This document shows positions 26,613 through 63,873 of a stretch of 64,000 nucleotides of DNA, piece after piece (positions within the stretch are counted from its first letter, which is position 1; each line of letters starts with the position of its first letter). Below the pieces are notes generated by a model. It saw only the letters and a list, made by a program, of their open reading frames with translations, was not told the DNA's origin and made no database searches. The stretch spans positions 2,976,001 to 3,040,000 of the forward strand of contig CM022671.1 of the NCBI GenBank assembly GCA_012295275.1, written 5' to 3'. Made by a program: the position numbers and the translations under genes. This stretch comes from Chrysomallon squamiferum (taxonomy: Eukaryota > Animalia > Mollusca).

Positions 26613-26788
26613 GCTCATCGGAACTACTTCGAGAGAAGACCATCATGATGATCGGAGCAACAGGATCAGGAAAAAGTACTCTGATTGATGGGATGGTCAA
26701 CTATCTTCTTGGTGTGAAGTGGAAGGACAACTTCAGATTCAAAATCATCGACTTAATGCCCGAGGAAGAAGCAAAACAAGGAAGAGAA
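26613..26788 (+). CDS. FN3-array GTPase gene, exon 3 (P-loop/G1)
   Basis: Phase-1 acceptor atcttAG|. Walker A in TIMMIGATGSGKSTLIDGMVNY. Donor GAA|GTGTGT (phase 0). Confidence 0.9.
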
Positions 26789-33800: not shown

Positions 33801-34186
33801 GAAAGGTTTGGATTGCATTCAAAAGATGTAAGTATAATTTTTTAGCAAACATTAAATAAATATGTGAATAATTTGGTTCAGAAATATTTTGTTATAATGG
33901 AATATTTTGCTGTCACTTAGATTCAGAATACACTAATTTCACAAACCATAGGAATAACCTGTACATATTCATACAATTTAAATATACACATACAAATAAG
34001 TAACATACAGAAATAAGCCAGTGTTTGAAATTATATATGTAAAAGAAGAAATTAAATACAAAACACTATACATGACTTTCAGTTAGTAAAAAAGAAAAAA
34101 AGAATATTTTAACCATCACGTGCCTGACATGATATATTATTACACACAAGTGCACATATTAAAATATTATTATTGGATTCTGTCAG

Positions 34187-36320: not shown

Positions 36321-36539
36321 ACCAATGTCGCCAGTTAATTTAACACTGAAATTCAACACAGTCAATGGAAAAGTGCTAATTATTTGCTTGATTATATAAG
36401 CAATTATCATCTGCACAAAGTGATATTAGCAGAAATAGGTCATTTTCCTTTAATTTTTTTAATGTCAGGATCTCTTTAGTGCAGTAGCTGAATATACCGA
36501 TTATAATAGTGACTAAAAGGATTAATGATGATTTTGTTG

Positions 36540-37550: not shown

Positions 37551-40206
37551 AACATGAAGATCAGTTGCACAGTAAGCCATCAGCCTTGATGTTGTTGTTG
37601 TTTAACATTTTATAATAAGTTTTACAGGATAATAAAGGGCACAAAAAGTATTAAATCAACATTCAGAATATAACATTTTGATAAAAATTCTGTTTCCTTC
37701 TAATTTTTGAAAACGAGAAACTTGTAAAAATTATCCCATGCATATTTGTTAAATATCTAATATTCTAACAAAATGAAATGAAACGGTTTATTAAAACATT
37801 TGATGCTATGTTTTATAATACTGTGACTATTTTTGTAACTATTTAGTGTGCATAATTCTGATAATTGTCTTTAACTTGCATGTATAATCTCTAGTGTGTG
37901 AAAAATAAAGATAATTTTCATCTACCAGTCATCTCTTTTGTTTTGTTTAAATGTTTTTTGTTTCACACAAACAAACAGATGGTATCATTGTTTATTTATT
38001 ACCAACATATAAAAGGGAATAAAAAAAAAATTAAAGAAAATTATGTTACATTAACGACTGGATTTTTAAGAAAACATTGATTTTGATTTCTATCAAAGTG
38101 TAATTATGAACCAAACTTCCTAACTAAGTTTTAATATTTGACAGAAGTATCTTGAGTAAAATGGAAAGAAGAGCTGAACATATCAATATGAAGAGGATAA
38201 ACATGTTTTCAGTTAGTTATGGATACTTTATTTAAGCAAGTGATTCAATAGGACTTGTTATTGAAAAATCAATTAATATTTTAATGAGCTGATAAAATAA
38301 TATAAATTATGATAAAAAAATATATGTAAGAAAAACTAAGGCATATAATAAAATATAAGAAGAGAAAAAAGAAAATTAAAGTAAAATCACCGACAAAGAA
38401 ATATAATTGTTTTTTATCTGAAGTAGATTTTTCTTTCCATGACTAATTTGATGCTCTCAAGACTAAAATTTCGAATCTTCAGGTTTTTTAAGCAAAACAT
38501 GATTGAAGTATATGTTGTTATGGTCTCTGAGACATGATTTGATTGCATATTAATAAATGCAGCTTGTTTCAAAATACATTTTTAAAATATTGTTGTAGCA
38601 TATTCAAAATGACATAATGCAAAATACATGTGTGTGTGTGTATATATATATGTATATGTATATATATGTGTGTATATATATATATATATGTATATGTATA
38701 TGTATATATATATATATTTATTATTTTTATTATTTTTTTAAAATTAGTTTAGGTCATTTAAAATACAAATTACATACTGCATGCTAGGTGAAATTATTCC
38801 TTTGAAATTAACCATATTTAACAAAGTTATGTATATAAATGAAAAAATTATAATTAAAAAATAACTATTATTTTTCTTGATACTCCGAAAGGACAAATTC
38901 ATGATCTAAGGGGAATAACTCAATTTAAAAGTTAGAGAAAGTAATAATTTTAAAACGAGAATAGCAGTGTACAATTATTTGCAAAAACAATTCTACATTC
39001 CTATTGTTTAAATTATATTCTGAATGTATATATTATTATTATATATGGTCCTTTCACATTTAATTTATTTAGAAATATTTTAGTATTTATACAGCATTTT
39101 ATATAGATAAGAAAACAAAAAAAGAAGAAAAGAAACTTACTGGTGTAAAGAAAATAATTTTTCTCATTGCTAGAATGAACACCTTCCTACAAAATATTTT
39201 ATTCAGTTAAGTAACTTTAAAAGTAGTTACCTTTAAATCAGATGACTAATTATTTTAATTATCCAAACTGTAGTATTATAAAATGGCTGTGAACTAATAA
39301 AATCTAATAGCCTGAATTCAGATATACTGATATCATGAAATAAAATATTAGTTTGAACTATAGAATTGGATTATCACCCACCCATAGTATTAAATTGGTT
39401 AAAATTTTATTAAAGCTATGGTTTCTTTCATCTTTTTCTTTCTTTCCTTTCTTCCATTCTTTCTTTATCCTTAAAAAAAATTTGTCTTTCTTTGTCTTCC
39501 TGACAGGCTTCCTGATAAGAATTTCCTTATCCCGAGTATCTTCAGGTGGAGATCAGCTCAGACGGACATTTGGATGGATATCACAGATTCTCATTTACTT
39601 GTGCCCTGGAATGCTCACACTCTTTAACAATTTACTGTCAGAGTTATCTCTCTTGACTGTATACAACTGTTGCTTTCTCACACATTTTCTTATCATTCAT
39701 AATAATAACAATAAATTATGGTTTCCATACTCACCACTTCACTCTCCTCATCTTCCTGAACTGATCCCTCGTCCTCCACATCACTCTGATTTCCATCTGT
39801 TAAAGAAACCTGCGACAAGATTTCCTCTCCCTGTTCAAAAACATACAAATAAAATACAAATAATACTGAATTAAAATTACATACAAGAGTAACACAGTCT
39901 TTGTTTCATATGGTTTGAAATAAACTATTCCATGAAAAAAACAAAATTAAAATCCTAAACCCTACTTTTAAAAAGAATATCAAGTTAAGTAATAAAAACA
40001 AAAACCTGCCAACATATCTATAAAAGTGGCATGATTAACATATTTTAATACAAAATTGTGACCTATTAGTATTAGGATTTACTAATCAAGTAAAATACAA
40101 AATTATCATTATGTTATTAAATGGTGTTTTTAATTTTAGAATCATTTTAATTATCCAAGCAAAGCTAGGGTTCAATTAACAGTTTGGAACTGCCAAAATG
40201 ATCAAC

Positions 40207-40353
40207 CTGCAGATCTCTGTTTTTCAGATTTCCCAGCCAGAATGCTTCCAAACAATTGTTAACAGTCAACATGGCCTTAACTCGATATACAAACTGTTCC
40301 AGTGCTCGTCTGAGAGGAAGCACCTTATTGGTCAGTGACACATCTCGGATTAT
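40207..40353 (-). CDS. FANCD2: FANCD2 conserved C-terminal exon (147 nt)
   Basis: [49 protein letters not shown] with AG/GT ends; open frame. Confidence 0.93.
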
Positions 40354-43300
40354 CTGTACACATGATAATATTTATAATAAAGATATGTCAATGGAAAATA
40401 CACAAACATATTATTTATCTACAGAGATATATTATAATGTAATGCTAGAAATAAATTTAAAAAATCTCCTGTTTTATGATGTTGTAATATATTTAGATGC
40501 TTTGATCCTTTTTTTTTTTTTTTTTAAATATGTCAAGTAAACAAAGCATTATAAGGTGTACTGTGACATTTAAAACATAACTAAGTAATCTGAGGCACTG
40601 AGGAGTCTCGACACAACTAAGATTTCTCTGCCCATAGATTTTTATTTACAAATGTGTGATAGAAATGTAACAGTACCTTGGAGTGACTTGACAAATGGTG
40701 AAGTGTGCGTGTACTGAGCTGAAAGTTTTTCAACAAAGACTGAACTTCTTCTCGGTCTGTGCGAAACATCTTGTCAAGCAGTGGCATTCCATTACGCAAA
40801 AACACATCCACAAACTGACGTCCATTCTGTTTAAGAAAAATCTTGTTAATTATAACATGTCATTATCCAGTATTAATTACTTGCACTTTATATAATTTAC
40901 AACCTCATTGTATTTCATTTGATTTTTGTTAAATGAAACACATTTAAAATTCTTTATGTGGGAAAACAAAATACTTCTCCTCACATTCTAAACCTTTTTA
41001 ATAACAATTTTTTATATCATATGGTAATCTAGAAAACTAAACGGAAAAAAGATCTGGTTAAAACCAATTTTGTCAACATTCTACCAACCTTCAAAGCAGC
41101 ACTAACAATCGATCGACTGTCAAATATCTGAAAAAAAAAAAATATTTATATATATATATATAAAAAAAATAAATCTATAAAACAATGTCACACATGATTC
41201 TTAATTAAGGTTAATGACAATTTCTTTGTCGTCATCTAAGAAAAATTAGGTGTTTTTTTTATATGTTTATTAGGAAACAATCACATCATTTTCTAGTGAT
41301 AACATGAGAACAATTTTTTTTTCAAAACATATATAGGCTATTCTTATTAATACAAGGGATCTTTAAATTGACTTTTTCGTAAAAAGATTAAATTGGAAAT
41401 AATCTGTATTGAATCATGGAGAACAGTCTGATAATTTTATTTTATTATATTCTACAATAAATTTATACAAATTAACAAGAACCATGTCAATATGTAATAA
41501 AAATGTTTCGCATATGGTTAACAAAATATTTTCCTTCTTAACATGTCTTTTCATATTTTGATATTATTAAATTTTATTGACAAACTTTTCTCATAAATAA
41601 TGAATTAATCTGTACACCATGACAAAGAGGTTTTAAAAAGAAACACAGCAACAAAACAGACAGTAGTGTGTGTAATTCTGCCTTCATACCTTAATTAAGT
41701 TTACCAAAACATGTAGAATTTTTACAGCTATGCTCCATCTTATCAGCTGATCTACCTTACCTGAAAAATATTGTTTAAAAATGCATGTCAGTAACATTCA
41801 TTGACTAATAATGCAAAAAGTTGAATTAAAAAAATAATGAAAAAAATTAAATATAAAATTAAACATTAAAAATGTTATTAATTATATTAAATTTAACTCA
41901 AATAAGATGTTCATTCCATTAACCAGTTTCAAATACTTGTTTTATTTTTTTTTTATATTCAATTACACTGACACTTCTTTTCTGAAATTTCCCACATTTG
42001 GAATTTTATTTAGCTTCCACAACTTCATGTATAGGATTACTAATCAGCATAAAAATTAAAAACTGTAATTCACAAGTTAAACTTAAAAATAAAATTTTCT
42101 CAACATAAAACAAAATAAAGAAAAAAAATAATAACCTCCCTGGAGTGACTGTTTGTGATGGGAGTCATTGACTTGATGTATCCCACAGTCTCACTGAAAA
42201 CAACTCGATAATACACTGGAAAACTTGATCTGTTACATTCAGAGTAAATCATTATATTTTAATACTTTGTAACGTAACTACATCCAAGTTAAAAGTATCT
42301 GTTATCACAAATAACTGAACACTTTTTCACACTGACTTATTACTACAGATTTTTTATCACCTTAGATATACTTTCCACAAGATATAAAAAAAACCCCAGT
42401 ATATAACAGATTTGTTTTACAAAAGAAGAAAAATGCAAACACAAAAATGTCAATTTACTGAGTAAATAAAAATATAAATAAAATATTGGACTGAAAGATA
42501 AAATAAATAGCTGAATAAGGTTTAAGTTAGCAACAAAAAACAGAATAAAAATAATAACGTAATTTTATCAAAACTGACCTGGTAAGAGAAGGAAAGGAAT
42601 CTGAAAATCCATTTTTGTCTGCCTCAATTAGCTCAGGAATTGCTTTTGTTGTGATCACTTCTGCTGCCTCCAGAGTGTCATCTGAATATGTTAGATACAT
42701 CCTATCAAAAAGAAATTTCAGCATTCAAAAAATCAAAACAAACCAGCCTGTAGACAGTCTGTGTTAATACCTCATAATAAGTATAACAGACATGTAATGG
42801 AATTTCACCTTTATTTAATGTCTCCCCATAAAAATTTTAAAAAATAAAATAAAATAAAATAAAAATGTCAAGTTTAATAATTTTTTTACCATTATTCTAA
42901 ATGACATATATATATGCAACCACACAGGCTATGTAGATGAGAGTGATATGAAAATGAAGATTATGCCAGAAGCAATATGAATGCTCCCATAACTTAATGG
43001 CCAAAAATATAATTTAAAACCCATTTCAACATGCAGGATTTTACATACTGACAACTCAGTCCCAACTATCAAATTTAGAACTGCAAAGAAAAAAACCAAC
43101 TATTGCCTGAAAATATAAATGAATTTAAAATTATACTTGCTTGATAATCATCTTTAAGTTATCATTGTGTTTAGCACCTTTCTCCTTTTCTCCATTTGCA
43201 CCAATCAATCCACTCTCGTTTAAAAAAACTTTCAGCAAGATTTCCTGCAAATTGTCAAATAAAGAAATATAAATGAACTGAAACTGAAATAAAAGTTAAA

Positions 43301-46300
43301 TATTTCTGTCAGTTACTACAGAATATTATCTACATGTTTTTTTATAACAAATCATTTATTTTTAAATCTGATTTTCTAAACGAGCCAAGATTACTGGTGA
43401 GTACTGAAACCTACCCAGTTTGTTAGATAGTTTGTGAACATCCACCTTAGCAGCAAGAGTTCCAAGAAGTTTGATAAGAGTAACAGCCGTGGAGATGTTG
43501 GGAACTGCAGCAGCAATGTTCTCCACATACTTGAATGCCACACTGCAACAAACACACAAAGATGATTTACTTCTTTTTCACTCTTTCTTAAGATGCAGAA
43601 GATTAAAATAGAAACATGTGTACTTAAGTTAACCTTCACTAAACCAACAGGTTTGAATTTACATAACTCCTGTGACTGATGTGTGAATACGCAATTGTAA
43701 TATACTGTTCAAATGTTATTTTAAAGAGTGTTTAATGCATCTATTCTCAATTAAAAGAGTATCTACAGTAACAAATCAATAAACACTTATTAAACATTAA
43801 TCAGTCTTCTTATACATGTTTTAAAACTGTACCAAATTTAACAAAATAACAAATGAAACAAAAATTGTTTTATTAAAATTTATAATATAAAAAGTAAAAG
43901 ATTTTAACAATTTTAACAATAATTTAAGTTTTACCTAACAAGTTCCTGAAATGAAATTTGTGTTGAGTCTAAAGTTTTAATTCTGCAAACAAGAACCTGT
44001 AGAGCTTTCTTCAACAGAGGCTGGTTTTCTGACTCCAAGAATCCATTCCTTCAACAGCACAAAAATCTTAGCATAATATCTCTCACACAAACAAATAACA
44101 CACAATATTCTTTAAGTAATGATATACCTGCCAATCACTAATATTTATTTAATGTCACAATAAACAAAAACAATAATTATTAATTTATGTGTTATTTAAA
44201 ATTTGGAATGTACGATGATTAATGTTAGGGATCACTCCAGATGATGTAATAAAAATTCATAATCTAAAAATGTTTATGTTAACACCCTTTCTGGTTATGA
44301 AACTAAACAGTCTGGAAAGATATAAATGTTTCATTTCGTGTTTATTAATGTAACAATACAACAGTTAATAAACAAAACTTTTTTCTTCATGTGGAAATGT
44401 TTCGGGCTTACCATTAAAACACAGACACCATTGAGTGTAGAAGTAGTTGAAAGCACGAAGTCATCAGAACAGCATCATCATCATCATAACCAGGGCCATC
44501 AATGAGTCTGTCATTTTCACTAATCATAGTCTGTACAAAAACGATTTTTAAACAATTTTAATAACCTCAAATGTTAGACAAAAGTAAAAAGGTTTCCTTA
44601 CCTTTTGTTATAAAAAGAATTTTAAGTTATCACAAAATAATTTCAAATAAAAAAGAATAAAACTGAATAAAACTTTGTTTAAATAAGGATTGTAATTCTT
44701 TATATTTTTCAAATGATGAAAGATTCAACCTATCATAATTTCACTTAATTATAAATAACACAAACATATATAATAAAATAGATACCAAAAAACGAATGTA
44801 ACTGAATAAATTAAACTTGAAAAAAAAAAGAATTTAATAATTAAATTATTATTTAACGATTTATTTTAAAGTGGGTAAAGCTGACCTGAAAAAATGTACT
44901 GACTGCTTCCAAGTGATTGCATAAGGCTGGTAACAGTCTCACAGCTTTTGCAGCTATTTGTTTTGGAGTAAACTGATCAAGTAGATGAAACCCAACATTT
45001 TTATTTCCTTTCACCTGAGGGAAATTACCAAATTACCAACCAAGGAGTCTTATAACAAATGAAATAAATAATTGCAATCTGTGCTTTATCAAGATAAAAG
45101 AACATTACTTTTTACTATTAGAATCAAAATAAAACAAACTGACAGGGTATCCATATTGCATTAAAGAAAAAGAAAAGTAATACTGAATAATTTACATGGT
45201 TTTAGTAAATGAGTAAAATTAATACTTTAAGAAACACTCTTCGTTTGCTGGCTGATGCAATCAGTGAATGGTTGAGTTTGTGTGCGAGATCCTCCAGAAG
45301 AAATTCTAGCTCAGCTGGTCGAAGGTGTAGACTTGTTTCATCCTGTCAATTAAAAACATTCAAATTATTAACATCTCAGCATATTTGGTGGTAAAATAAT
45401 TTATTATATTTCTAACATTTGAGGAATTTTTCAGAAATTTGATGTATATTCAGGTCTGTGCTTTAAGTCATGAAAATGAAACATATGACTTCATTATTGA
45501 CTTTATAATTAAATTAATTCACTGGGTGTCTGGGAATTTCAGACCTCTGTCTAAATACAGAACCTTACGAAATGAATGGTGAGAATTTAACAAATTAACA
45601 TAATGAAATTTAGGACAGGTACTGATTTTTGATAAATGACAATTCAACATTTCAAACTATTATTATTATCATTATTTAAAAAAGATATCTGTACATTTTG
45701 TGTGTAGTGGTTTCTGTAAATGTGTCATGTGAAGACATTTTTTTGTCAAAACTTTGTCCTGGGCATTTTGCTTTAAACTTATTTTTACCTTTGTGTTACT
45801 GTCTGTATCCATAGCTACAGCAGAAATTAGTTCATTGTTCAGTACAATAAACGCACTAATGTCCAACTCTCTGAAACAAACAAAATTAAATTAAAATGTA
45901 CCACTGATGATGTATCCAAAAAGCCTTAATACATTTTGTTTATTTTGTCTTTGCTAAAAAATAAGACAAAATTAACATGTTAATGAAGATATATGGAATT
46001 TGAGGTTTTTCCCCCCCCTTTATTGTGAAATCATTCTGAAATATTAAAATAGCAAAAACAAAATTCTGCGGTAAGTCACTTAGACATTGTAAATAAAACA
46101 ATTAAAAAATACCCCATTAAATTAAATAACTTAAAAATATTAACACAAAAAAACTTTTTTTATACCTGAAATATTGTCGATAATTTCCAAGGTTAATATT
46201 ATTTTCATCTCTGGTATCAGCTTTCACCTGATTCTGTGATTCTCTTGGACTACTTTTATCTGCATCCTGACAACAAAATAACTAACAACAGTAACATAAA

Positions 46301-47996
46301 CATTATTGACATGGTATTTTTAGTTCTCATGATCATTTTAAAAATTGAGAAAAAAAATTATATTTGAGGTTTATCCTAATTACAGTTTTGTGCATCTCCT
46401 CTATCTTACACTGACAGAGAAGGGAGGATACATCATATATTGAAATGGGTATAAAAAGTTTCTGTAATATCCTGGCTCAAAAAACTCATTTAAGAAACAA
46501 TATTCTTACTGAGAACATGAGCTTAGTCTACTTAGCTATGTGATTACAAACCAGTGACGTTGAGTCCCTTGATGTTTCATCCATGTCATCCATATTTTCT
46601 TTGTCGTTCTTTCCTTTAGCTTTCCTATAAATTAAATATGATTTTAAGTTTAAATTACTAACATTAAACATTTATAACCAATTTTGTTTTAAAAATGAAT
46701 ATATAAAGCTTATTATTTCTAAAATGATAAAAACAAATTGTGTAGGAGGATTGTTTCACTAAATCAAGAATTTTTTTCACAGAATATATTGTAAAATTCT
46801 AAGCTAAAATAAGTATGGCATCAAGAAAAGATTTTGATACAATTTATATTTAAGTTTAAAATGCAAAGCAAAATGTGATTCTTCTCATAACTGGCAAAAG
46901 AATAAACCTAGCTGTAAGGTTTCACAGTACTATTTAAAATAAAATTTTATTTGTGAAAAAAAAAATTAATTAGTAAAAAAATGGTGATAAAATTAAAAAA
47001 AAAAAAAAGTACAGAACATGGATCACCTTTTCCCTGGTTTTCTTCCTTTCTTTTTAACCTCTCCTGGGTCACTCTTGATCTTTGTTTCTTCAAGGTCAAA
47101 ATTAGCAAGTGGTGGTTTGAAGTGTGGTGTAGCTACAAAAAAACATTATTCCATTTAAATCATTGAAATATTAATAAAAACAATATCTTATCTAGTGTGA
47201 AATCATGTATCAAAGATTAACATCAACAAAAAAAAGAAAAAAAGAGTTAAATTACATTATATATTGAATATGAGTTTTATCTTAAGCACACATATTAAAT
47301 TTTTAAATTTATTTTTGAAAGCAAATGTAATGACATTTTTAACAATAACATGGTTCAGATAATGTAAACAGAAAAAGACCCAAAACACCAGATGAATATT
47401 TAAAATATTTTAATAACTGAAACTCAAAATCTCTATATTCTTGATAACCAATTAAAACATCCCCAAAACTACCAATGTAAACATTCACCATAATGAATCA
47501 GTCAACTCTCTAAACCCTCAAAATGTTTCATCTTAAAACCTTTCCCTGCATGATATCCCATCTGTTTACAAAATGACTAAATGACATAACTAAATTAAAA
47601 AACACACAAACCAATCAAGCACTTGATGAGAACTGTCTGCAGATCTGTGATATTCTTAAGTCTGGTAATGACCTTCACCTTCATTTCTATTGCTGTTTGG
47701 GTGGCAAAACTGTTAACCACCTTAAATGATAATAAAAATGAAAAATCATTAAAATAATATAGTTATTGTGATCCTTAACTAAAATGTACATCCATTTTTG
47801 TTTTAATTTTTCTGCATGAAAATGAAATGATTTTTTGGGCTAAAGGCACCTTTGTGTTACTTATCTGTCAAAGTTAAAAGAAAGAAAGAGTTTTTAAATG
47901 TTAAAATGAATCACTGATTATGTTATGTGTAGATAATTATTACAATTACAGTTGCTTTTAAACAGTACATTTTAAGAGGTTTCAAGTTAATACTAC

Positions 47997-49830
47997 TGGA
48001 TTATATTCAGATAATGGATTCCATTCATGGGTACAGGTTTACTAGTAGTCAACACTGATTACCTCTCTAAACCAGTTGATGTTGTGAAACAGTGTCTGAC
48101 AAATTATTTCTTTTTCCCTGCTTGAGAGAGATTCAAATTTGTGAAACACATCTTCCTTCACTGTGTACAGAGGACAACCTGAGCAAAAATAGTTAAAAAT
48201 CTTAACCATATTTCTATATCAATATGTGATTTAAAACACAAAACAGCAGTGTCAAATGAATGCAATGCTGAAATAATGATGTTCACTACATTGACAATAA
48301 TCTGTAAATATTTTCATCAAAATGTATAAATGACTTAAACACAGTGGATTACTGAGTCAGACTTTCTTCTTGTACCATTTCAGAATAAATAAATAAAAAA
48401 GAATTATGTATATTGTGGACAACCGACTACTCTAATAATTATGAATGAAGGTAATTTAATGTAGCCAGCAAAAGCACAAAATTAAGAATATATATATAGA
48501 ATACTGAGAATGATCAAGAAGAAAATGTAGAGAAGTTAAAAACAGAATTAAGGTTAACGTGGTGAATATCCATGGAAACCATTTAAAATTTTATATGAAG
48601 AACAGTTATTAAAAGCATAATTGAAAACAAGACAGGTTTATCTACTACAGTGATGATGGATTCTAAGCAGTCAAATGTTACCAAGAAGAGCGTCAATTTC
48701 TTCCAGATTCCCATCCTGCTGATGTCTCTCACACATCTGAACAAGACGAAAATGAGAACAGAGACAGAGAGGGTTGGGCGTCTTTCTGTCAAAATACACA
48801 GATTGTTAAGAGGTAAGTAGAATTTCTGTCATATTATTAACATGCAATGGTGCTAAAACAAATTATTAATAAATGAGATATAGTTTACTTGACATTATAA
48901 TTATTTAAACTGTTTAAATGATTTTATTATTTTATAGATACTGTTTAAATTAAATTATAAAAAATGAAAATCTGTTTTACATTTTCTTATAAATAAAATG
49001 AAATATATAAAACAGGATTATATTCAGATAATGGATTCCATTCATGGGTACAGGTTTACTAATAGTCAACACTGATTACCTCTCTAAACCAGTTGATGTT
49101 GTGAAACAGTGTCTGACAAATTATATCTTTTTCTCCGCTTGAGAGAGATTCAAACTTGTGTACAAAGGACAACCTGAGCAAAATAAATTTTAACCATATT
49201 TCTATATCAATATGTAATTAAAAACACAAAATAGCAAAGTGTCAGATGAATGCAATGCTGAAATAATTTGTAAATATTTTCACCATTCCGTGGAAATGAA
49301 ATTGGCTTAAAAACAATGTCACATATCAAACCTTTTTCTTGTACCATTTCAGTTTAAATATATAAATAAAAGAAAACAGAAAAAAACAAAATTAATATAT
49401 ATATATTTATTCTGAAATGGTACAAGAAAAAGGTTTGATATGTGAGATATGTTTTTATTCTCAATATACATATATATAGAATATTGAGAATAAAAAGAAA
49501 ACCAAGAAGGAAATGTAGAGAAATTAACAACAGAATTAAGGTTAACATGGTGAATATCTATGGAAACCGTATATAATTATGCATGAAGAACAGCTATTAA
49601 AAGCATAATCGAAAATATCACAGGTTTATCTACAGTGATGATGGATTCTAAACTAAGCAATCAAATGTTACCAAGAAGAGAAAATTATTAATAATTGAAA
49701 TTCAGATTACATAACATTATAATTATTTAAACTGTCTAAATTATTTTACTATATTATAGGTACTGTTTAAATCAAATTATTTATATAAAAGTGTTTTACA
49801 TTTAATTATAAACAAAATAAAATATATACA
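47997..49830. repeat. ~1 kb intragenic tandem duplication in FANCD2 (47997-49010 vs 49015-49830)
   Basis: ggattatattcagataatggattccattcatgggtacagg occurs at 47998 and 49015. The second copy holds a deleted version of exon 48063-48178 (49080-49173) and only the tip of exon 48682-48785 (~49671-49680). Confidence 0.9.
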
Positions 49831-51647
49831 ACAGTATTAAATCTAGCAGTAACGAGTATGTTATCAATGTTGTTATTGGGTATAACCTGTCTTTGTTGTG
49901 GTTGATGCTGTTGGTGTGAGACTGTATCACTAAAGGTAAAAGATTGATGGCAATTGTGCTTTCTTGTGCATCATCAAGACCAAACAACAATGCCAATGGA
50001 ATGTCTGTTGTGCTGAAGAAAAAAAACCAGGATCAGTTAATATGTTACAGGTTATTTTACCATGTATTTACTTTGTTAGATGCCAAAAATCAATATCTTT
50101 TTGTGCCAAGAGGTCATTAGATATTGGTATCTTATATAAAAATGCCCACAAATCCTAATAAAAACTAATTTAACAAAAGAAAAGTATAAATCAACACACA
50201 CAAAGAGACAAATAAAGTAAACAAAACCAGAAAGCCTTTTCCCTTCAATAAAAAGCACCTTATTTATCTGAATTATATCTCTTAAAAAAATAAAAAATAA
50301 ATTAATTCTGTATAAAACATGATGCAATATTATTGTTATGCATTATTACTGAAAGATTTAATCATGACAGTTAACCTCTATATTTTAACCCATATAGGAA
50401 TGAAAAATCTTTAATTTTCCGTATCTAAACTAGTTATAGTTGGAATGGGATATAATGAATAAATAAACATTTTTTTAAACTACTAATTAAAACTGACAAT
50501 GTTAAGTTTTTTCATGTACATACATCTACAACATAATTATCTTGAAAATCAGCAATAACATTTTCTGCAATCCATGTCTTGAAGAATAAAGCAAAAAAAT
50601 GACAGAAATAATAATGTAGTGGCAAGAAAAAACCAACAAAAAACTGCCTGATATATTAATACAAAAAATTTTAATAAAAAAATAATAATAATAAACTAAT
50701 ACAATAAAATATCACTGGAAAAAGAAAATTACACTTCAACTTACTATATTTTAATGTTTAATTTTTGTTCTTGATTAAAATTTGTGAAACAAAACATATC
50801 TTATTCTCACATAACAATGAAATGTTTTTAAAGGAAAAGATGTTTCTCAAAAATAAATAACATACTTCAACTTCTGATTTTTTCTGACCAAGACTAACAA
50901 TGGCTGATAACTCATCCATGAAGAGTGCTGCTGCTTCTGGCATCTGGTTACTGCTAGTTCGAACCAGCTGAAGTAAAGTAATGACCTGTTTACTGAGGTC
51001 ACTGGACAGTGTCTGGTCAGTCTGGCCACTACAAAATCAGTACAGTTGAAATGACCATTAAAGCAAATCAGAAAAGACCCATTATTAAACAAATAAAAAA
51101 AACCAAGTATTTTAATTCTTTCAGGTACAAACAAATCTAGAAACTAGTATTTTAAAAACTATATATTGAAACATTGTCCACAACAAACCTATAAACTATA
51201 TATTTTAAGACTATCCACTGCAAACCTTAAAATTATCTATTGTAGTTTGTCTTTTACTAACCTATCCATTACAAAGAAACCTATAAAACGGCATCTAAAA
51301 AGTATTTTGAATGAGTAAATAAACTTTAAAAATAAATAACAAATAGAAAAAATAACTAAAATAATCAGATCATCACAAACAAAATTACAATCATCTACTT
51401 CACAGAAGAAAATAAAAATCTGAGTATGTTACAAAATGCATTCAACCACTGTAGATATGTCAGCTACTCACCCAGTGAAAACTATACTTTTACATATCAT
51501 TACTATACTTTTACATATCAAAGTGTCTGTTGCTGGCAAGTTTTGTTTGGCTGTTCTGTGAATTATATTCTTTTCATGAATATATTTATACAAAATAATC
51601 TATATATATATATATATATATCTTGTTTTCTAACCTTCTGTATATAT

Positions 51648-52280
51648 TACATCCCTTTGAAATGCCGGAAGGGGTAATTTGTAAATATGACAGTTGCCAT
51701 TTCGGACTGCATCTATTTTGTTTAGGGACAAGATGTGAACTGCTGACCCAAAAACTGCAAAACAGTGGCATGACAGCCGGTCTAAATAAACGTGAGACGG
51801 ATATTGCTGCCATCTCTTACAGCATGAAGCGAGACCTCTGTACATGTGTAATGTGTATGTGAAAACTGCACAGATGTTACAACTTCATATGAGTTTCATG
51901 CAAATGATATGAAGCTTTAACATGATCATTCAGCGTAATAGTTGGTTTTTCTACTGATATTTTGATATGCTAGGCACGCTATTGAATTATTGAATGTTGA
52001 AGTACATTCAGTGTAAATTATTTTTAGCAAAAATATCACAATGTCATGCATGAAGACTGTAGTTTTTGTTAAACTTATTTTATAACAAAGAACTTAAGTT
52101 AACATTTGGTTCATTATGACTGCCTATGTATTTACCAATAATTTGTTTTACATTTTTATATTTAGTCTAGTATAACTTGATACTAAATTTGTTAATGCAA
52201 TGTTTTCATCACCCCCTAAAAAAACCTAAATTCCTAGTATTATTATCCTGTTTAACATCCCTGTTTTGTAGGCATTCACT
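51648..52280 (+). mobile_element. Possible piggyBac-derived non-autonomous relic in a FANCD2 intron
   Basis: Start resembles TTAA-CCC (ttacatccctttgaaatgccgg). Cys/His-rich remnants such as RPLYMCNV..LH; ggcattc near 52270. Boundaries are weak. Confidence 0.3.
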
Positions 52281-53196
52281 TATCCTGTGTGCCCTAGATG
52301 GAATGTTTGATCACTGAATGATATTAATATAAGATGTCAACGTGAGGCATGAAAACTGTAATTTTTCACAAAGTTATTACTGTACATACTATAAACGTGG
52401 TTTTTATTACCAGGATATTTTTTTCAAACAAATGTTGTTGGTAAAAATGTTTTTCTCCTAATTCTTCATCCCTGAAATATTTAGTTTATTCCCAATCCAA
52501 CATGTAGATAGTATTGATCTAATATTTAAAAAAAAAAATGTATACTGCTTTCTTTTCTCACACTCATATTAAATCAAAACAAATTCACAAGGAAATCAAG
52601 AAACAGAGAATATAAAAAATGTGTGGCTACATTATTAAACTTAAATTAACTACAATAATTCATGTTATCTTCCTGTGTCAATGATACTTTGCTTTGGTAT
52701 ATATATAAACAAAATTAGTTAAATAACAACATATTGCTATGATGTTAATTTAAAATACCTGTTGGCAGAAAGTGTCGAAAGTCACAAATGTTTTCTTGTA
52801 CATGGCACAGGCAAAATGGAGGATGCATGGTTCTGGAGATCGTAATAAAACTTCAGCAATGGACAAAATGGAAGGAAAATATTCCCAAAGTATCTGAATT
52901 AAATATTAATAAATAAATATGTTTTAATTAATAATTATGTGCTACATTATAATTTCAAATGCTTGACATTTAAATAATCCGAAGAATAATACGTAATCCA
53001 ACATAATTCAGAATTATAATTAGAACTATCAAAAAAATCATAAAATATTCATATTAAAAATATTCACTTATAAAGAAATATTTAAAAACACATGTTATGA
53101 AAGACAAAATTGATATAAATTATAAAACATAATACCATCATAATAGTAATAATTTTAAATCAGAATTCTATGAAAAGTGAACAAAAAAAACTTTAC

Positions 53197-53370
53197 CTGT
53201 CCATGTGACTGAAATGCATCATGTAAGAAGACTTCAGTAAAAGCACCTGCTCGGATCTTGTTTCGGAACACACTCTCTACTGGCTTGCGTCGATTTGTTG
53301 AATGTAGAATCAGCAGGATAAAAATATCTATCACTTTGTGCTCAGCAGACGTTTTCAGAGAATCTATAAC
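53197..53370 (-). CDS. FANCD2: FANCD2 exon (174 nt)
   Basis: VIDSLKTSAEHKVIDIFILLILHSTNRRKPVESVFRNKIRAG..SHGQ, donor CAG|GTAAAG. Confidence 0.9.
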
Positions 53371-53872
53371 CTTCAATGGAAGTTGTTAATTGTATGAATA
53401 AGCATTTTTTCTCATGCCAAAAGTGTTTATAAAAGCATTTATTTTGAAAAAAAGATTGTTAGAAATCATGATATTTTAACTGCACTTAGTGTCTGATCCA
53501 GAAGCAATGAATTCATGCTGGAACAGCCAATAGCTCCAAAGATTTGGAAACAAGCTGTTTGTTAGTTTTAGCAAAATAAATTCTGAAGAAAATTTCATTC
53601 AATTTAAAAATGATAGGTACAATCAAAAATTAAGACAAAAAACCCACAAAATGTTCACAAACTCTAACTATCTTCAGCATAAAGTGTATTTTTAAAACTG
53701 TTAGAAAAGCAATGGCATATTTTAATATAAATCAGACATGTCAAAAGGAAAAAAGGAAATAATTAAGTTCAGTCATATATAAAAAAATAACCCAGTTTTA
53801 AAAAATTAAATAAAGATAAAATTTCAGTTTGCAGTTCTCAGAATACTGAACCTTTTCTATTTTAGATATATA

Positions 53873-54469
53873 CAGGGTGTCCCAAAAGTAACCAAACCGC
53901 AAACTTAAATAAAATTAGATATTAAAAATAACAAATTTAATTCCATCGTTTTATGTCATTTTATGTTATCTTTTGTACTATTCATTTACTTCTGTCAGTA
54001 GTAGTCTTTGGAATGATTTTTGTTACCTGATTATAGTGTTCTTCGTGATCAAGACTTCTGTTTTAGTGCACACTACTGGACTTTCCATGGTTTGACTTGA
54101 AATGGTACCCTCACTCTTAAAAATGCAGCGAAGAACATTAGATTTAAACGAACGTATCTTCGTTATTAAGAATTACTATGCAATTACTAGCTACAAGCAT
54201 GTTGAAGAAAGATGGGAAGTAAATGTTAGAACACCTGTACTGAGTAAATCTACAATGTTCAATCTTGTATCCAAATTTGTGTCAAATACTCCTAAAAAAG
54301 GTCATCCAAAAACACTTCATCCAAAAACAGTTCATCAAAAGGTGTCATGATTGTATTGAAGTTCAAGGTAGACATTTTGAACATTTGTAAATACTAAATA
54401 TAATAATTTGTTGTTTTTATTATCTAATTTTATTTAAGTTTGCAGTTCGGTTACTTTTGGGACACCATG
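53873..54469 (+). mobile_element. Internally deleted Tc1/mariner-superfamily element with ~65 bp TIRs and TA target-site duplication
   Basis: ta|cagggtgtcccaaaagtaaccaaaccgcaaacttaaataaaattagata... and ...tatctaattttatttaagtttgcagttcggttacttttgggacaccatg|ta. An N-terminal HTH remnant (ERIFVIKNYY..SKSTMFNLVSKF) is joined to the C-terminal RCHDCIEVQGRHFEHL*; the catalytic core is missing. Confidence 0.92.
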
Positions 54470-57400
54470 TATATAAAATGATAAAGAAATATGAGCAATT
54501 TACTATTTAATAATCTATTAGTGCACATCTAAAAATAACTGCTCCAAGTGACAACAAAATAGAAGGAATGTGCAAAGACTGAATCAACAATGAATCAATT
54601 TATTAGTTTACTAATCCACATTATACATCATACACAACTAAAAGCTCTGAATTATTACAGCAACATCTTTCTGAAACCGAATTCCAGGTTGAGGACATCG
54701 AGGTTGATGACTTCATTGTCTCTAGTGACATCATCATCAGCCACTGACCTGACAAACAAGAAAAATATTAAAACCTTAGTCACATCCAAATGTTTGTATG
54801 AAAACACACAGAAAGAAAACATCACAATATAGGTATATGTTGTTGTTTTTAAATCACTCCTTCACGTGTTTCTTTAAAATATAACAAGTAAACCACTAAA
54901 TAAATTTTTAGATATTTGCATACTTACATTGATTTATTTATTTGTTGTCTCAAACAGTGCCTATATTGATGCTAATAAATAGACTACGTATATTACAAAG
55001 AATTAAAATATATCTTTTAACTAGCAAGCAGTCTTTGTTAATAATATAGTATAATTTCAATAATGTAATAATACTCCAAGTATGTTTATTTTTTATGTAT
55101 CTGTGACATCATGTTTATTATATACCAAAATATAAAGAACTAGGAAGAGATATAATTATTTATAGTTTAGCTTTCTAATAGAGCTTTTAACAAAAGGTTT
55201 AAGGTTTATAAGTTTAATACATACATAAACCATATAAAGGTATTATGGTATAAAACATTATAAAGAAGTTGTTACCTTTATTTCTGTTAATAATTACTTA
55301 GAAATACTGACTATAAACTTCTTATCTTTATACCAACCTGGGATTTTTCTTTTTTGTCTTAACTGGATCAAAGCTCAAATTTGCTCTAATCTCTGATACA
55401 ATCTGTTAAGGGAAAAAAAATATTATGAATAAATACAAAAAGGATTAAAATAGAATTTTTAAATGTTCTCAAATATCTGATTTACATAACTGACTAATTT
55501 TTTTTTTTATATCACTTTGACTAACAAGTAATTTTACAGAACAATGAAATAAATTGTAATATATGTTTAATTAAAAAATATAATAAAAACTGCATTCACC
55601 TCAACCGCATCATTAGATATAACAGTCTGTAGGAGAAATTTAACAACTATTGGAAGATCTTTCATTTCAACTGAGTCCAGTGTTCTGATCACAGAGTTTC
55701 GCACCTGTTCAAAAATACAGTTATATCTCTGAAAATGTTGTGTAAACCTCTAACATTCAAACTATGTCTTTAACTTTTAGACTACGGGATTAACATTGAA
55801 CAAAAACTGTGCCAGTGAGTACATTAATGTGCAAATGTATTATTGTATTGTAACATTTAGACTACTGGAACAATGTAGGATAAAACTGGTGTACATTCAT
55901 TCATCTATTTTGACTGAAGAATTTCATGTCTTAATCTTGTTAAAAATTCAGTCAAATCTTTTTTTATTTTTTATAAATGTGATTTTATTTTTGCACATTT
56001 ATGATTTGCTTGCATCAGTATTTATGTCCATTATTTTGATTCTTGTAATACTTTGAAACTGCTTAAAATAAATAAATAAATAAACAAATATGATTCAAAT
56101 CCAAATGTTTTAACTTTACAAGAAATAAACAGTAAAATTTGAGCTCTAAATTTCTATAAATTTTTACTTCGGTCAGTAATTCTCATTTCAATGCCAAGTT
56201 TGAAAGAGCATCCAGAATAGGAACTGTCAGCTGATTTCCTTCCAGTAAAATATCTCTGAAATAAATAAATACATATGTTTTCTTATTAAAATATAAAATG
56301 GTATAAATTAAATAAAATAAATAAATAAAAAAGTGAAAGAAAAAGGAAAAAGAAGTGTAAATTAAACCATACAAATATGTAAAGAAAAAAAATCAGAAAA
56401 AAAGCAACAGAATAATATTTAAAAAACCCAGAAGAAAAACCAAAAAATATTCTGATAAATGTGAAATAATAATTACTAGCATAAAAAAATGTTTCAGATA
56501 AACAATTAAATTTCATTAATATTTTCCAACTTATTAAACTTGGCTGTTTTTGAAAACACAGTTTACTTTGAAGTACCTTAGAGTTTTAGCAACATCTCCA
56601 TGTTCTGTATCTTCAACAACCTCAGGCAAACAACAGATCACTTCTCTCTGAACATCTAATGACGTCACAGGAATTATCTCTAATAGCTTCATAGTCAAAT
56701 CCTGTAAAAGTCAACAGTTTGTAAACAACCAATTTATTTTTAAACCATTTCAAAATCAAATCTTGAAACAATCAAAGGATGCTGAAATCTTAAATACTTT
56801 CTGTATGCCTGCGTGTGAGAGAGGCATAGATATGAAAATTAATTTTCAGGTAAAGTCAGATACTGTGAATCTAAATTACTTTATCTATCTGTAAATGAAT
56901 GTACATCTGTGCCTGTGTGTGTATATGTGACATGTATTATCTTAGTTTCAAAATCAAATACTGAAACAGCCAAAAAACATTCAAAATACTTTATTTCACT
57001 TCAAGTATGCATGTGCACATGGATATCATTTGAAAACTAGTTTTGAAACCAAATCCTGTAACCGTCAGATTTACCAACAAAGAATGTTTAATCTGTCCAT
57101 GTGAATATTTTGTATGTCACTGTTGTCAAGTCATAAAACAATCAACAGATAAAAGAGAAATAAAAGATGAATTAAAAGGACCCTGAAACTTGCTGATATA
57201 AACAAAAAGAAACCTTGCTGCAGATAACACGATCCAGCCATCGAAACTGACTAAGCAGAAGACGTGGAAAAGATACTTTTTCTCCATGATCAAAAATATT
57301 ACTGTAAAATGAATAGAAAATAGTTTTAATTAATTACTTGTACTATGCATCTATTCAGTATTTAGATTCCATTATGAAGTCTGTCTGGTTGTTAGCTGAG

Positions 57401-60400
57401 TCAAACTAGTGTTCAATTTAGTCTGTGAACCCAGTTTTGTAACTGACAAATTAATTAAAACAAATTTCTATTTATTAAAGACATGTTTCAGTAAATAATT
57501 TAATTATTTAAGGCAATAAAACTATGTTAATATTTTAAAAAGATAGATGTGTGATTTTTAAGAAAATGAAGTCTTTCTGATCACTATCAAAAATGAAGAA
57601 TGAATGAATAATATTTTAATAACATCTTAAATTTGTTTTTATTAAATCATTGTGACGTCATTATAAAGTCTTTGTAATAGCAAAATGATATAATCATTTA
57701 ATTAAACACACTAATGTAAATTGTAATCACTTACTCTTCTTCTCCAACAAACTCAGGAAGCTTTTCAAGTAACAGACACACCAGTTTAGGCTAAATAAAA
57801 AAATATTAATAAAATGTAGAAATTAAACATGAAAAAAATATATATATAAATTATAAATCAATAAAGAATTAAAATATGAAAGTTAGTTAAAGACATCAAT
57901 AAAGATAAACAATAACTATCTTGATCTGGGTTTTTTAATCATTATCATTATCATTATTTTTTTTGAATCAATAAAGAATTAAAATATGAAAGTCTGAAAT
58001 TAAAACAAGTTAAAGACATTAATATTTCCAATTGGATATAATCAGTAAATACAAACAAGAGCTGTCTTGATCTGTTGTGAGAATAATGATAATGTAAAAC
58101 TTTGTAAATGAGTTCCTTAAATAATAACTATCATGTTCAATAAATGCAGAACACAGTTGTATTTTGTAGATTTCAAAGTGAATTTCTTGTCAAACGGTAT
58201 AAGTCTATTTTATGTACTTTCAAATCAGTTCTGCTTCCATTCAAAGTCTATCCCTACTTATACTCACAGAGTCTAAATAGTTTTGAAAATTACTTGAAGG
58301 AGCTGATTTATTTAATAACAGTATAAATATATTTCAGATTTAATATTTTTTACTTGTATTAATTTATTCATAATTTATTGTAATTAAAATAACACAATTT
58401 TACCTGTATAATATCTATGCCAAGTAGAATTCTCACCAAACTATTCTGAATAGATGATCGAGCACTTAAAAAAAGAGAAAAAGATATATATAGACACACA
58501 CACACACACACACACAAATACCCACACACACACAGAGAAATACCCAATGATTTTATAAAATATTTGCCAGCAATACTAATTTAATAAAATTTGTGACATT
58601 TTAAGATTTCTTGTTATTATTTGCATGTTATATATATATATTTTTTCAAACATTTTATTTAATATCACATGATGTTAATATGACCAATCAAATTAACTAT
58701 CACAATGTCTGAAAATAAGGAGAGAAAGTAAAAAGAAGGTAACTACATCTTGTACTTTTTATTGTTACATTTTTTAAAATTATTTTCTTTGCTGTAAATA
58801 AAGACTGACAATAAATAACATGTCTGAGGAAAAGCAGAGACTGGTAGTTTCTCTATTTTCACAGCTGTGCAAATTCTAATGTTAAAGTAAACAGATGAAA
58901 CAATGCTGGATCCATTCTTCTGCTGGAGATTCTTTATATTTCTAAACAAGGAAAAATGGCGTGTTCCACACTTCTATTACATCATTATATTATTTCCATC
59001 CTTCATTATTAGTAAAGGTTTAGACTTAGTCAAAACAAAATACTTTGAAATGTACCTGTGTTATTATTCTTATTTTTTTATATTTTAAGTTTCTAAAATC
59101 AAAATGCAGCACATACCTTTCACAGTCCAATGATGTAAGTGTTGGCATCAAACTTTTATAAAATCTAATTTTGAAAAACAAAAGGGATAACATTACACCA
59201 TTTAATAAAAAAATATATATTAAAACTGGGAAAGAAGCATTCAATAATAACATCTTGATACATTTTAATATCAACTATCAGAAATCTTCTGCATATATAC
59301 CATTCCACTAATTAGCAACATGAATCTTTAATATGATAAATTACATAGGTACCACAAACTTTAATATTTCAGTCATTGAGAATTGGTTGGAACATGATAA
59401 AGTCAAAAAAGAAAAATATAAAATTATAAATGAAAACTAATATGATCAGTATTTAGAAGAGACATTTACCTTTACAGATATTTAAAATATTTAATATAGA
59501 CTAAACAAAAAATTAAACCTATACACCTTATCTTAAGTAGTTTAATAAAAATTATCTACATGTATGCAGTTTTATATATTATAATTTATTACTTAAAGAA
59601 AAACACACAACTTTTTATTTGTCTTTAATCATGCAATTTTCTGTTCTACTAGTGATGAAAAAGCTACATTCTAGTTGATCTATAATTATCTTGTGAGAAT
59701 AAGAATGTGGGTGTTTACACACACACATATAAATGCATACATACATAAATATATTTAAAATCATTCTAATTTTAACAAATTTCAGGGGTAAAATATTATT
59801 TTAAATAAAAATAACTAATGATTGTTACCTTTCAGATTTTTCAATATAATCTTGAAATCCTTGTAAAAATCTTCTACAACCTTCCAAAATAAAATTAATA
59901 ATAATGTACACACATTATAAAGTCACAAAAATACAAAAAAGAATATACATCTTCAACAAATTAATAACTGCAGGGCAGAAAAAAAAAAAAAAAAGGCAAA
60001 ATGATTTTACAAAATTGAGAACCAGTTTTACCCACAACATAAAATCTGAAAACACACTAATTAATAAAAATAAAACTATAAATAAATTATTTCTATTAAG
60101 AATTATACTTCTATATTTTTGTTTTCTTTTTATCACAGTTTTACACTTGTACTGGTAAACACATAAAATTCCAAAACATGTCTGGGATTAACAGATTAAT
60201 ATTTTCACACAACACCAATGGGAACAAATTCCAATACTTAGTTTTATGATAAATAGTTACTTTTATTTTTGGCATATTTTAATACTAGTACCCCATTTCA
60301 AACTTCTTCAGAAAAAGCATTTCTACAGAATAACAGAAATTAGTTTTTATATACACATTTCAAAAAGAAATAATATTTTGAAAAAACTGAAAAGTTGAAT

Positions 60401-60877
60401 GAAGGATATATGAAAGAAATTCTTAATATTTCCAAGATTTTCTTTCTGTCATTTTCCGGTGTTTGTTTCCAAATTTGTAATCAGTAGCACAAATAGTGTT
60501 CATGCAGTATCTGCCAGAAAATGTTATCTGTGTACATGAACTTTCTTTTGCAAAAAATTGAAACATTTGTCTGAAAATATACATTTTGTTTTTACATTTT
60601 CTTAATGGTTGAATCAAAAATTAAAAAAATGTATTAATTTCTTCAAATTTTCACATTTTTTTGTGCTTGTGTGTCCCCTTAACCAAACTAAGAAAATAAT
60701 TAAATAAATACATCAGGATAACTGTTGTGTCTCTTCAATGCTGTGTTAATATTTCTCTGAAACACTGCCTGGTCCACACCTGAAACAAAACAAAACATTA
60801 AAATTAACACAATATTCAGAACAAGCAGCTTGTGCATCAGTTGTAGCATGAAGGAAGAACAGTTTAAATAAATATTT

Positions 60878-60913
<36 letters not shown>

Positions 60914-63873
60914 ACATGTTTTATGCATACTTTTAAGGACCTTAGCAACAATAACTCAATGAGTTAGGAAATACGGAACCAGTGACCTATTTTTTTCAGC
61001 AAGAAGGCAAAGTTTTACACATATCTTTCCACAAATATGAAAATGCAAATTTTCATTAGTAGTAAAATGTGTGTTTAATAAAGTCACCCTATTTGATAAA
61101 TTATAAAAATACTTCAATTAAACTAAGAATTTCTGTGGACAAATGGCCTAAACATTATATACAGATTAAAGACAAAAAATAAAGTACAACAACTTGGAAC
61201 CTTTCACTGTGATGTTACTGTACTGAGATTATGTTGTATTGTGTTGTGGTATGTTTTGTTATTTTAACATCTTAACATATAAAACGTCCTCAGAAAATAG
61301 AGAGAAAAAAACAAAAGACAATTATTAGAAAAGGATGAGTTCATGAAAATTATGTTTTACAAACTGCTTTTATAAGGTTTATTTGTAACACTAAAGGTGT
61401 ACTTTAAAACATTTTTTTTTTTTTTTAAATCAGCCAGCATTTAATGTGGATACTATATCATGGTTTTGATTGTTTAACAAAGAAAAAAAAATGGAAATAT
61501 TATGTCCCAAACGTTTATATAATTTTATACACATACATAACCTTTACTTGTGTACAAGTCATGTCTTGATACAAAATTAATTAAATGCACATGGATATAC
61601 TGAACACTGGTGGTTTATAAAAAAATCTGCTGTTCTGCATTTATTGACTTTCATTTTTATTATAACTATTATACACAAAGGTGAGTGGGCAAGAACACAT
61701 ATAAAATTTCTATTAACTGATCAGTATAAAGTTGGCAAAATAAACTCTGTGTTCCAAATCCTACGTGCACAAGTCTTATCCCAACTTTCAGTAATGAATT
61801 AATCTACAACATGTGGCTATAAAACCTTTTGAATATGATCACTGTGAGTGTTCATATACAAAATAAAAAATATCTCCTGTCTGATTATTTATTGTAAACC
61901 ATACAAATGTTACCTATTTCATTATTTATCTTTCCCTGCACTAAGCGTGAAACCTGCTTTATAAACCATCTGAGCAAACAGAGACTTGTCTGTGTAAATA
62001 TCATCAGTTACCTCCTCTTCATTTCTCCGTTTCTGTTTACTCCCATCTGAAATAAATTACTAAACATTACAAACATACTAACAACTTAGACATCATCTCA
62101 CAATACAACATAAATCAAAAAGACTAAACTTTGGTGTATTGGTTTGTTCATAAACTACAGTTAAAATACACACAAATAAAAAAAGACATATGGCAATAAA
62201 ATAAGTGAGGGGTTTTTTTTTGTTTTTTTGGAGGATACAGTAGTTAAAGAAGAGATTAAATAATTTACTTATTTAGTCTTTTTCAGTTTCAATTCATTAT
62301 TTGTATATTGATCTTTTACACAAGCAAACAGACTAAACATACAGATAGATCAAAACTGAATATCTGTAAATTTTAAAATTTAAGCATTTCAAGAACAAAA
62401 CATTTAAAAACACAGGAGGAAATGAAAGTGGCTGCACTCTTTTCAAGGTGAATTATGTTATAGCTATACTTTTTTATTATTTAACCAGCTTTACAGGTTA
62501 TTGTTTTTTATTTTTTTTATTTCCATTATTAGTATTTATTGTAAAATTTTCGGAATTACTAATAAAATATCTTTTTTCTAAATATAAGTGTTGATTTTTA
62601 TTTATTTTTTTGTGCATAGCTTTGTTTTATTTTATATAATTTCTGGTGCATGGACAACTTGGCCTGTGGATTCTTGGAACAAAATTTGTAGAGATAAATC
62701 ATGCATGTGACAGTCATAATGTTAGCTGTGCATAGTGTAGAGTCCATGCCATAGCTTATTATAATAACAGTATCAGATGGGTTTCTAGAAAAGTATAAAG
62801 TAATAATAATGGCCATTGTACTGTTGGTAGACATGATCATGAAGTACCTAAAGCATAATCCACCCCAAAGTGCTCTTTATTATATTAAAATATGTTTGTT
62901 TTCCTTTAACTGACATTTTGGCTTAAGGTGGGACTATTTCAAAACCAACAGAAACAGATTCATTTATTCAAGAACAGTTTTAATTTAAAAAAACACTTTT
63001 AAGTTATAAGATTCTGTCCGTGTCCCATTTTTTCAGAACTGTGGGCTGAGTGGTTCCCTTTGGCCAAGCTGTTTGACATTCCCAGTTTATAATTTACTAC
63101 AATCAGCCAAAGATTGATTTACATTTAAACAAAATGAAAAAACACATATCAAACCTAAAGATGAAGAATTTTTTTCTTTTTGTTTTCTGCATTTTTCTGG
63201 AAAATAAAAATAATATATATAAATTAATGCTATTAATAATGTTACATGCGACTGTAATTGAAACAGAAATACAGATAGAAAAAATAAATAGCAATAATAA
63301 TTATTAAATTATTAGAACAATAACAGTTTTATTGTCTGAAAGTGAAAAGATTATATTTTATTTATTTATCATTTTTTTTTTTTTTTTTTTCTATAAATTC
63401 TATTATTATTATTGTAGTAGTAGTAATAGAACAATAAATTAGTTTTATTGTTTGAAAGGATTATATTTTATTTTTTTTATATAAATTCTATTATTATTAT
63501 TCTAGTAGTAGTAGTAATAGCAGAAATTTAATTTAAAAAAAAAAAAAAATAAAAACGTTTGCAGGTTTCGGGCCAAAGATCTGATCTGCGAGTATGAAAA
63601 CTACGTGTTCGATTGAAGGCATCAGTATACTATAACATAACATGATTATGATGATAATTATTACCAATTTACATCATTACAATGTAATTTACGTGTCATT
63701 GTTTGTGGTTTATTCGAGTCCTTGTTATTTGTTATCATTATCATATTATGTTTAAACTAGTGTCGTAATGACTTTAGAAGTTTAGCACTTTCTTTAGAAA
63801 GATAGGAAAAAGATTTTGTTTTCCAAAATTTCACATATATTTACAAACATAATCAATCCACCACTGGACTAAC

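What the first reader, a model, noticed from the sequence alone, without database searches (positions are those of the whole stretch)
39735..62046. FANCD2 appears recently pseudogenised: possible loss of the core Fanconi anemia repair step
Seen: in-frame stops at 56183-85 (TGA), 50512-14 (TGA) and 44414-16 (TAA). Frameshifts at ~61931-36 (+1), 59865-69 (-1), ~54688 (-1, with the exon 3' end EAWIK-equivalent lost), 43202-09 (4-nt ATTG duplication) and ~41757 (-1). A multi-exon block is also missing. Yet 38 exons keep their splice sites, and many match the human exon sizes I recall (68, 61, 125, 88, 105, 135, 120, 116, 109, 117, 129, 119, 123, 94, 39, 147, 96 nt). Known: the FANCD2-FANCI clamp is central to interstrand crosslink repair and common-fragile-site protection, and is usually single-copy. 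Inference: substitutional stops, a 4-nt duplication and exon loss are not typical homopolymer errors. This is either a unitary loss or a dead duplicate.
Basis: partly seen in the sequence, partly recalled or inferred. Interest (0 to 1): 0.85.

Follow-up and report, generated by a model that had tools for sequence, protein, structure and literature searches.

The report
Dead spare copy of FANCD2
This stretch is a broken copy of the DNA-repair gene FANCD2, but public reads of the same organism show a second, spliced version that has the missing part, so it is likely an ordinary dead duplicate and the repair pathway is likely not lost.

Summary
The lesions are in the window: all 3 stops, all 5 frameshifts and the missing block were found where stated. 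The block is about 116 residues and holds the lysine that matches human K561. I add a likely +1 shift in coding exon 1, an exon remnant at the deletion junction and a last exon that was not found. The animal is a gastropod, sister to Gigantopelta aegis in a 13-sequence tree. Pathway loss is not supported. In contigs of four public runs (two studies) laid on 44300-57800, the main version is about 1% different and reads Ser at the TAA. A spliced 3,644-nt contig carries 350 extra nt exactly where the window lacks its block. Window-identical contigs, one spanning the TGA at 50512-14, also exist at about half that depth. Best reading: a young, intron-bearing duplicate decaying beside an expressed copy, probably at one dose per genome. 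Humans also have FANCD2 pseudogenes. Only some lesions could be checked in reads; homopolymer shifts may be assembly errors. Low interest.

The parts
39735..63192 (-). FANCD2 unprocessed pseudogene, 38 coding exons (3,817 nt), 75% amino-acid identity to Gigantopelta FANCD2
63155..63192 (-).
61931..61936 (-). +1 frameshift in exon 2; not read-checked
59865..59869 (-). -1 frameshift in a T run, exon 4; not read-checked
56183..56185 (-). In-frame TGA in exon 10; inside the laid stretch but not among the rows shown
54659..54748 (-). Exon 13, 90 nt against 106 expected from P0002: -1 at ~54687 and 15 nt lost at the 3' end. The transcripts match three letters upstream of exon 14 that this exon end does not supply
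53862..54476 (.). 615-nt MITE-like insert with 71-nt, 93% inverted arms; skipped by the main contigs of X1 and X2
51504..52758 (-). Interval that holds the deletion of the block for P0002 E448-~553 (includes the K561-equivalent K536); repeat-rich near 51516-51966
51472..51520 (-). 32-nt remnant of the last missing exon (VMICKSIVFT, donor GTGAGT in the right phase) behind a 21-nt-period perfect tandem repeat at 51481-51520
   Evidence: 0 of 300 shuffles reach the score
50512..50514 (-). In-frame TGA in exon 17; spanned by a zero-difference contig of X2 (50107-50568, depth 97.8)
49011..49829 (-). 819-nt local duplication with a degenerate exon-20 copy (49173-49080); part of it (49416-49883) held letter for letter by X1 and X2 at low depth; skipped by a deeper X2 contig and an X6 contig
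44414..44416 (-). In-frame TAA in exon 28; all four laid runs read the Ser codon here
43202..43209 (-). 4-nt duplication, frameshift in exon 31; not read-checked
41755..41760 (-). -1 frameshift at the start of exon 34; not read-checked
39700..39735 (-). Last donor found; the final ~28 codons of homologues were not found downstream in the window (best E 6 over the minus strand of 1-39734)

Best explanation
The window holds a broken, intron-bearing copy of FANCD2 that is likely a young DNA-level duplicate decaying without selection, while a second version of the gene is spliced and likely supplies the working protein. Shown: the lesions; two sequence versions about 1% apart in DNA contigs; a spliced transcript of the other version. 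Inferred: a segment of at least 23 kb was duplicated. The spare copy then gathered stops, small indels, a transposon-like insert and a deletion whose junction lies inside an exon and removes the monoubiquitination lysine. Any transcript of it would stop within the first exons. Depth suggests one dose of the dead copy per two of the live gene in both DNA runs, so it is probably hemizygous (about 0.6 given a duplicate). The rest of that weight goes to other 2:1 arrangements, such as two live loci or a ploidy effect.
For:: at 44415 the contigs of 4 of 4 runs read the Ser codon; 10 of 12 homologues have Ser there. X8 record 23 (3,644 nt) lies on 5 listed exons, with an exact exon14|exon15 join; X6 record 18 shows the same join. 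Distances between anchors are 810 nt (window exons 810), 79 (82) and 350 (0); 350 nt is 116 codons plus 2, the size of P0002 E448-T563. Window-identical contigs: X1 49416-49883 (depth 6.6), X2 49416-49883 (105.9), X2 50107-50568 (97.8), against main contigs at 15-21.5 (X1) and 235-275 (X2). A shared-word model gives live:dead 2.1 in X1 and 1.85 in X2 (range 1.6-2.4); GC content does not explain it (0.23-0.24 vs 0.24-0.29). Differences are transition-rich, as real divergence is (table 1). Of 6 coding differences among the 40 rows shown, 4 change the protein; at 3 of these the window departs from a conserved residue (S to stop, G to R, R to W). At 0.7-2% divergence 1-3 stops are expected by chance.
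Against: No genome is held, so the live locus was not seen as a second place. The transcript's open frame is inferred from lengths and one codon, not read through; its first ~320 codons are not covered by one listed contig. The dose rests on 3 window-identical contigs and 10 main contigs, with gap events guessed, and the tool warns that depth is a poor copy number. X2, the only run that shows a stop, may be the assembly's own source. Divergence is patchy (about 0.9-1.0% in most contigs, 5.6% and 7.8% around 53668-55398). The 819-nt repeat differs from its neighbour by 5-18% per block, more than the two versions differ, so the history is not one clean copying event. At columns invariant in 12 homologues the window differs at only 7 of 145; in leave-one-out counts it is no worse than live genes (7-10 against 5-27), so protein-wide decay is not visible yet.
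Confidence: 0.82

Rival explanations
1. The window is a null allele (haplotype) of the single FANCD2 locus, carried in heterozygotes beside a working allele.
For: About 1% divergence is in the range of allelic difference in marine molluscs (my recall, no call). Patchy divergence and an old local repeat fit a long-lived haplotype. No second locus was seen directly.
Against: Heterozygotes should give 1:1 depth; both DNA runs give about 2:1. About a dozen separate lesions would have to pile up on one haplotype without recombining away.
Confidence: 0.11
2. One intact gene, made to look broken by assembly errors and a misjoin.
For: Four shifts sit in or beside one-letter runs (63170, 61931-36, 59865-69, 41757) and are unchecked. 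The neighbouring FN3 array also has two shifts in A runs. The TAA is in no listed contig. A repeat lies beside the deletion.
Against: Zero-difference contigs span a TGA (X2) and part of the 819-nt insert (X1 and X2, two studies). The differences are transition-rich. The deletion ends inside an exon at a 21-nt tandem repeat. Some single lesions may still be errors.
Confidence: 0.05
3. Unitary loss: the species has no working FANCD2 and has lost the central Fanconi step.
For: The window copy alone cannot make the protein. No protein of this organism came up in 2 protein searches.
Against: Spliced contigs in two studies; one carries the missing block by length, the other runs 357 nt into it; Ser at the TAA; the non-window version is the deeper one in DNA. 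The listed mollusc relatives have full-length FANCD2.
Confidence: 0.02

Closest known systems
Human FANCD2P1 and FANCD2P2 (PMC4657327, passages read)
   Same: Pseudogene copies of FANCD2 beside a working gene.
   Different: This copy is nearly full length (38 exons) and only about 1% from the live version. The passage I saw gives no structure for the human copies; that they are partial and intron-bearing is my recall.
Hemizygous regions and gene presence-absence variation in molluscs (bioRxiv 10.1101/2020.09.15.298695, passages read)
   Same: About half depth; the neighbourhood holds AIG1 GTPase genes and tandem duplicates, which that paper reports in hemizygous regions.
   Different: Here the passenger is a dead copy of a housekeeping repair gene. 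Hemizygosity is inferred from contig depth in two runs, and absence in other individuals was not tested.
Gigantopelta aegis FANCD2-like P0002 and P0001
   Same: Closest relative (75% identity, tree support 1.0). That species also has a second, 124-aa FANCD2-like model that skips two exons.
   Different: P0001 is a short piece closer to its own species' gene, so probably a separate duplication. P0002 is labelled low-quality by its source, so its frame was probably corrected there.

Membership tests
FANCD2 orthologue lineage | Collinear homology to FANCD2 over the whole protein | tested here: met
   Exons match P0002 residues 1-1395 in order; an exon hits 7 solved FANCD2 sequences; P0002 scores 1523 bits on Pfam FancD2.
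Functional FANCD2 | Open frame of about 1,400-1,450 residues | tested here: not met
   First stop at codon 16 of the plain join; 3 stops remain after reading through the shifts.
Functional FANCD2 | Monoubiquitination lysine (human K561) | tested here: not met
   Lies in the deleted block: P0002 K536 aligns to K561 of the 1,451-aa chain (role from PMC4657327). A profile of the block finds nothing in six frames (best E 0.06).
Unprocessed (duplicated) pseudogene | Keeps introns and splice sites, has disabling lesions | tested here: met
Unprocessed (duplicated) pseudogene | A working parent gene exists in the same organism | tested here: met
   Spliced transcript with the missing block and Ser at the TAA; its full open frame is inferred, not read.
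Unprocessed (duplicated) pseudogene | Sits at a locus separate from the parent | tested here: inconclusive
   About 2:1 depth argues for an extra copy; no genome held to map it.
Unitary pseudogene | No working copy in the genome | tested here: not met
Hemizygous / presence-absence region | Half the depth of two-dose DNA | tested here: inconclusive
   Live:dead 2.1 and 1.85 from 3 window-identical contigs.
Hemizygous / presence-absence region | Absent from some individuals | not tested

The most novel reading that the evidence does not exclude
The dead FANCD2 marks a young, non-recombining chromosome segment that stays at one dose (a sex-limited or supergene-like block) and is degenerating. It trades sequence with the live gene by gene conversion, which would explain the 1% versus 6-8% mosaic and could feed null alleles into an essential repair gene.
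Probability: 0.1. Interest if true: 0.5.

Novelty: new member of a known kind. Interest (0 to 1): 0.12.

Why it matters
Mostly as a warning: a near-complete dead copy 1% away from the live gene can pass for gene loss, and it will confuse read mapping, polishing and variant calls at FANCD2 in this species. It says nothing new about crosslink repair. If the one-dose state held in every individual of one sex or morph, the block would be a handle on a hidden non-recombining region in this snail lineage.

Tried and rejected
No whole genome is held, so no search for the second locus or for FANCI, FANCL, UBE2T, FANCM, FAN1 was possible. Two protein searches (8 hits and the best 120 of 1,002 listed) gave no protein near-identical to the window. 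A metagenome scan gave one weak 23-residue match, L001, rejected as likely chance and not read. Three look-ups of earlier findings returned nothing. Low cover at 56928-57800 was not used. One search had two segments out of frame and was replaced. The invariant-column test showed no clear excess decay. The last exon was sought by pairwise alignment, a profile and a motif without success; it is short and low in complexity, so a miss is weak. Literature: 0 papers held Peltospiridae + genome + FANCD2; 1 held FANCD2 + mollusc + gastropod + duplication (listing only, not read); one search listed no report of this case. No supplements were read.

Full report
What the sequence shows. The window is AT-rich animal DNA (25-39% GC per 2 kb). 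A minus-strand exon hits solved FANCD2 chains, and its best relatives are two FANCD2-like proteins of Gigantopelta aegis. Using P0002 I placed 38 coding exons from 63192 to 39735. Read through with X at each break, the copy is 75% identical to P0002 and 43-59% to 11 other homologues, and it is sister to Gigantopelta with support 1.0 (FastTree, unrooted, 12 of the 123 proteins fetched). The host is therefore likely a related gastropod; I did not name it.

Lesions. The gap between 52759 and 51028 lacks P0002 E448-T563, a block conserved in all 12 homologues (display). It includes K536, which aligns to K561 of the 1,451-residue solved chain, the monoubiquitinated lysine (PMC4657327, passages). 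New here: coding exon 1 is one base too long in an A run; 32 nt of the last missing exon survive at 51503-51472 with a donor in the right phase, scoring 44 against at most 22 in 300 shuffles, behind a perfect 21-nt-period repeat; the last ~28 codons were not found. The TGA at 50512-14 sits in an exon 3 nt longer than in the transcript, so it likely comes from two small indels, not a substitution (inference).

Reads. Eleven runs were listed, nine holding part of 52700-62100, from three studies. I laid 4 of the 11 on 44300-57800. All are contigs, and the tables were cut: 40 difference rows shown with 347 hidden, 32 pieces shown with 6,172 hidden. Two versions appear. The deeper one differs by about 0.9-1.0% in most pieces, reads Ser at the TAA in 4 of 4 runs, skips the 615-nt inverted-repeat element (X1, X2) and skips the 819-nt local duplication (X2, X6). 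The shallower one is identical to the window: 468 nt inside and beside the duplication in X1 and X2, and 462 nt across the TGA at 50512-14 in X2. So the window version is real DNA and not the only version.

Transcript. X8 record 23 (3,644 nt; the run is labelled DNA by guess, but the contig is spliced) lies on five listed exons. Distances between them are 810 nt where the window's exons give 810, 79 where they give 82, and 350 where they give none. 350 nt is 116 codons plus 2, which fits the missing block and the phase of the next exon. X6, on record as RNA and from another study, shows the same exon14|exon15 join and 357 further letters toward the block. This is strong evidence of an expressed FANCD2 with the missing part. 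Its open frame is inferred from lengths and one codon; I could not read it.

Dose. Taking the window-identical contigs as the dead copy's depth and correcting the main contigs for shared words gives live:dead of 1.7-2.4 in X1 (5 records) and 1.6-2.2 in X2 (5 records). One record per run that ran off the stretch was left out, and gap events were guessed from gap letters. A broken allele would give 1:1. One dose of an extra copy fits best, but this is rough.

Mechanism. Likely a segmental duplication followed by neutral decay. 1-3 stops are expected at 0.7-2% divergence, and 3 of 6 listed coding differences hit conserved residues on the window side. Against a simple story: one 1.7-kb patch is 6-8% diverged, and the local duplication looks older than the split between versions. 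Either the live version lost it, or the copies exchanged sequence. Invariant columns show no clear excess decay.

Comparison. Humans have two annotated FANCD2 pseudogenes (PMC4657327, passages). Hemizygous regions with AIG1 GTPases and tandem duplicates are reported across molluscs (bioRxiv 10.1101/2020.09.15.298695, passages); this window has an FN3-AIG1 gene, a decayed paralogue and a 10-kb repeat. I found no paper on this case in three searches (listings only).

Verdict. Observation confirmed; loss of the Fanconi step not supported; an ordinary unprocessed pseudogene, probably at one dose. Open: the place of the live locus, five unlaid frameshifts, and the other Fanconi genes. Interest 0.12.

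Noticed in passing
window 21460-28484 (+): Gene with about 11 near-identical ~306-nt fibronectin type III repeats followed by a P-loop/AIG1-family GTPase region. The repeat array has two frame breaks in A runs near 23540 and 23770, which may be assembly errors.
   Followed up: partly
window 34128-36330 (+): Decayed paralogue of the FN3-AIG1 gene (46-71% identity in pieces, with frameshifts, a stop and a lost stretch), just 3' of the dead FANCD2.
   Followed up: partly
window 2-8267 and 10275-18353: Tandem duplication with about 10.2-kb spacing, 90-98% identical (5.3 kb at 97.7%). Could be real or two haplotypes joined.
   Followed up: no
window 53668-55398: The main contigs differ from the window by 5.6% and 7.8% here, against about 1% elsewhere. 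Unexplained.
   Followed up: partly
window 49309-49455: 60-nt inverted repeat (88%) inside the 819-nt duplication.
   Followed up: no
window 43141: Exon 31 needs a GC donor to keep the phase of the next exon.
   Followed up: no
P0001 (Gigantopelta aegis protein): A second, 124-aa FANCD2-like model that joins residues ~224-287 to ~346-402 of P0002; its longest contig has the same length as that of P0002. Suggests a partial duplicate in that species too.
   Followed up: partly
window 51-404, 10371-10658, 19090-19977: Short open frames that looked like transposase remnants to me (recall); Pfam found nothing in 4 of 4 tested.
   Followed up: partly
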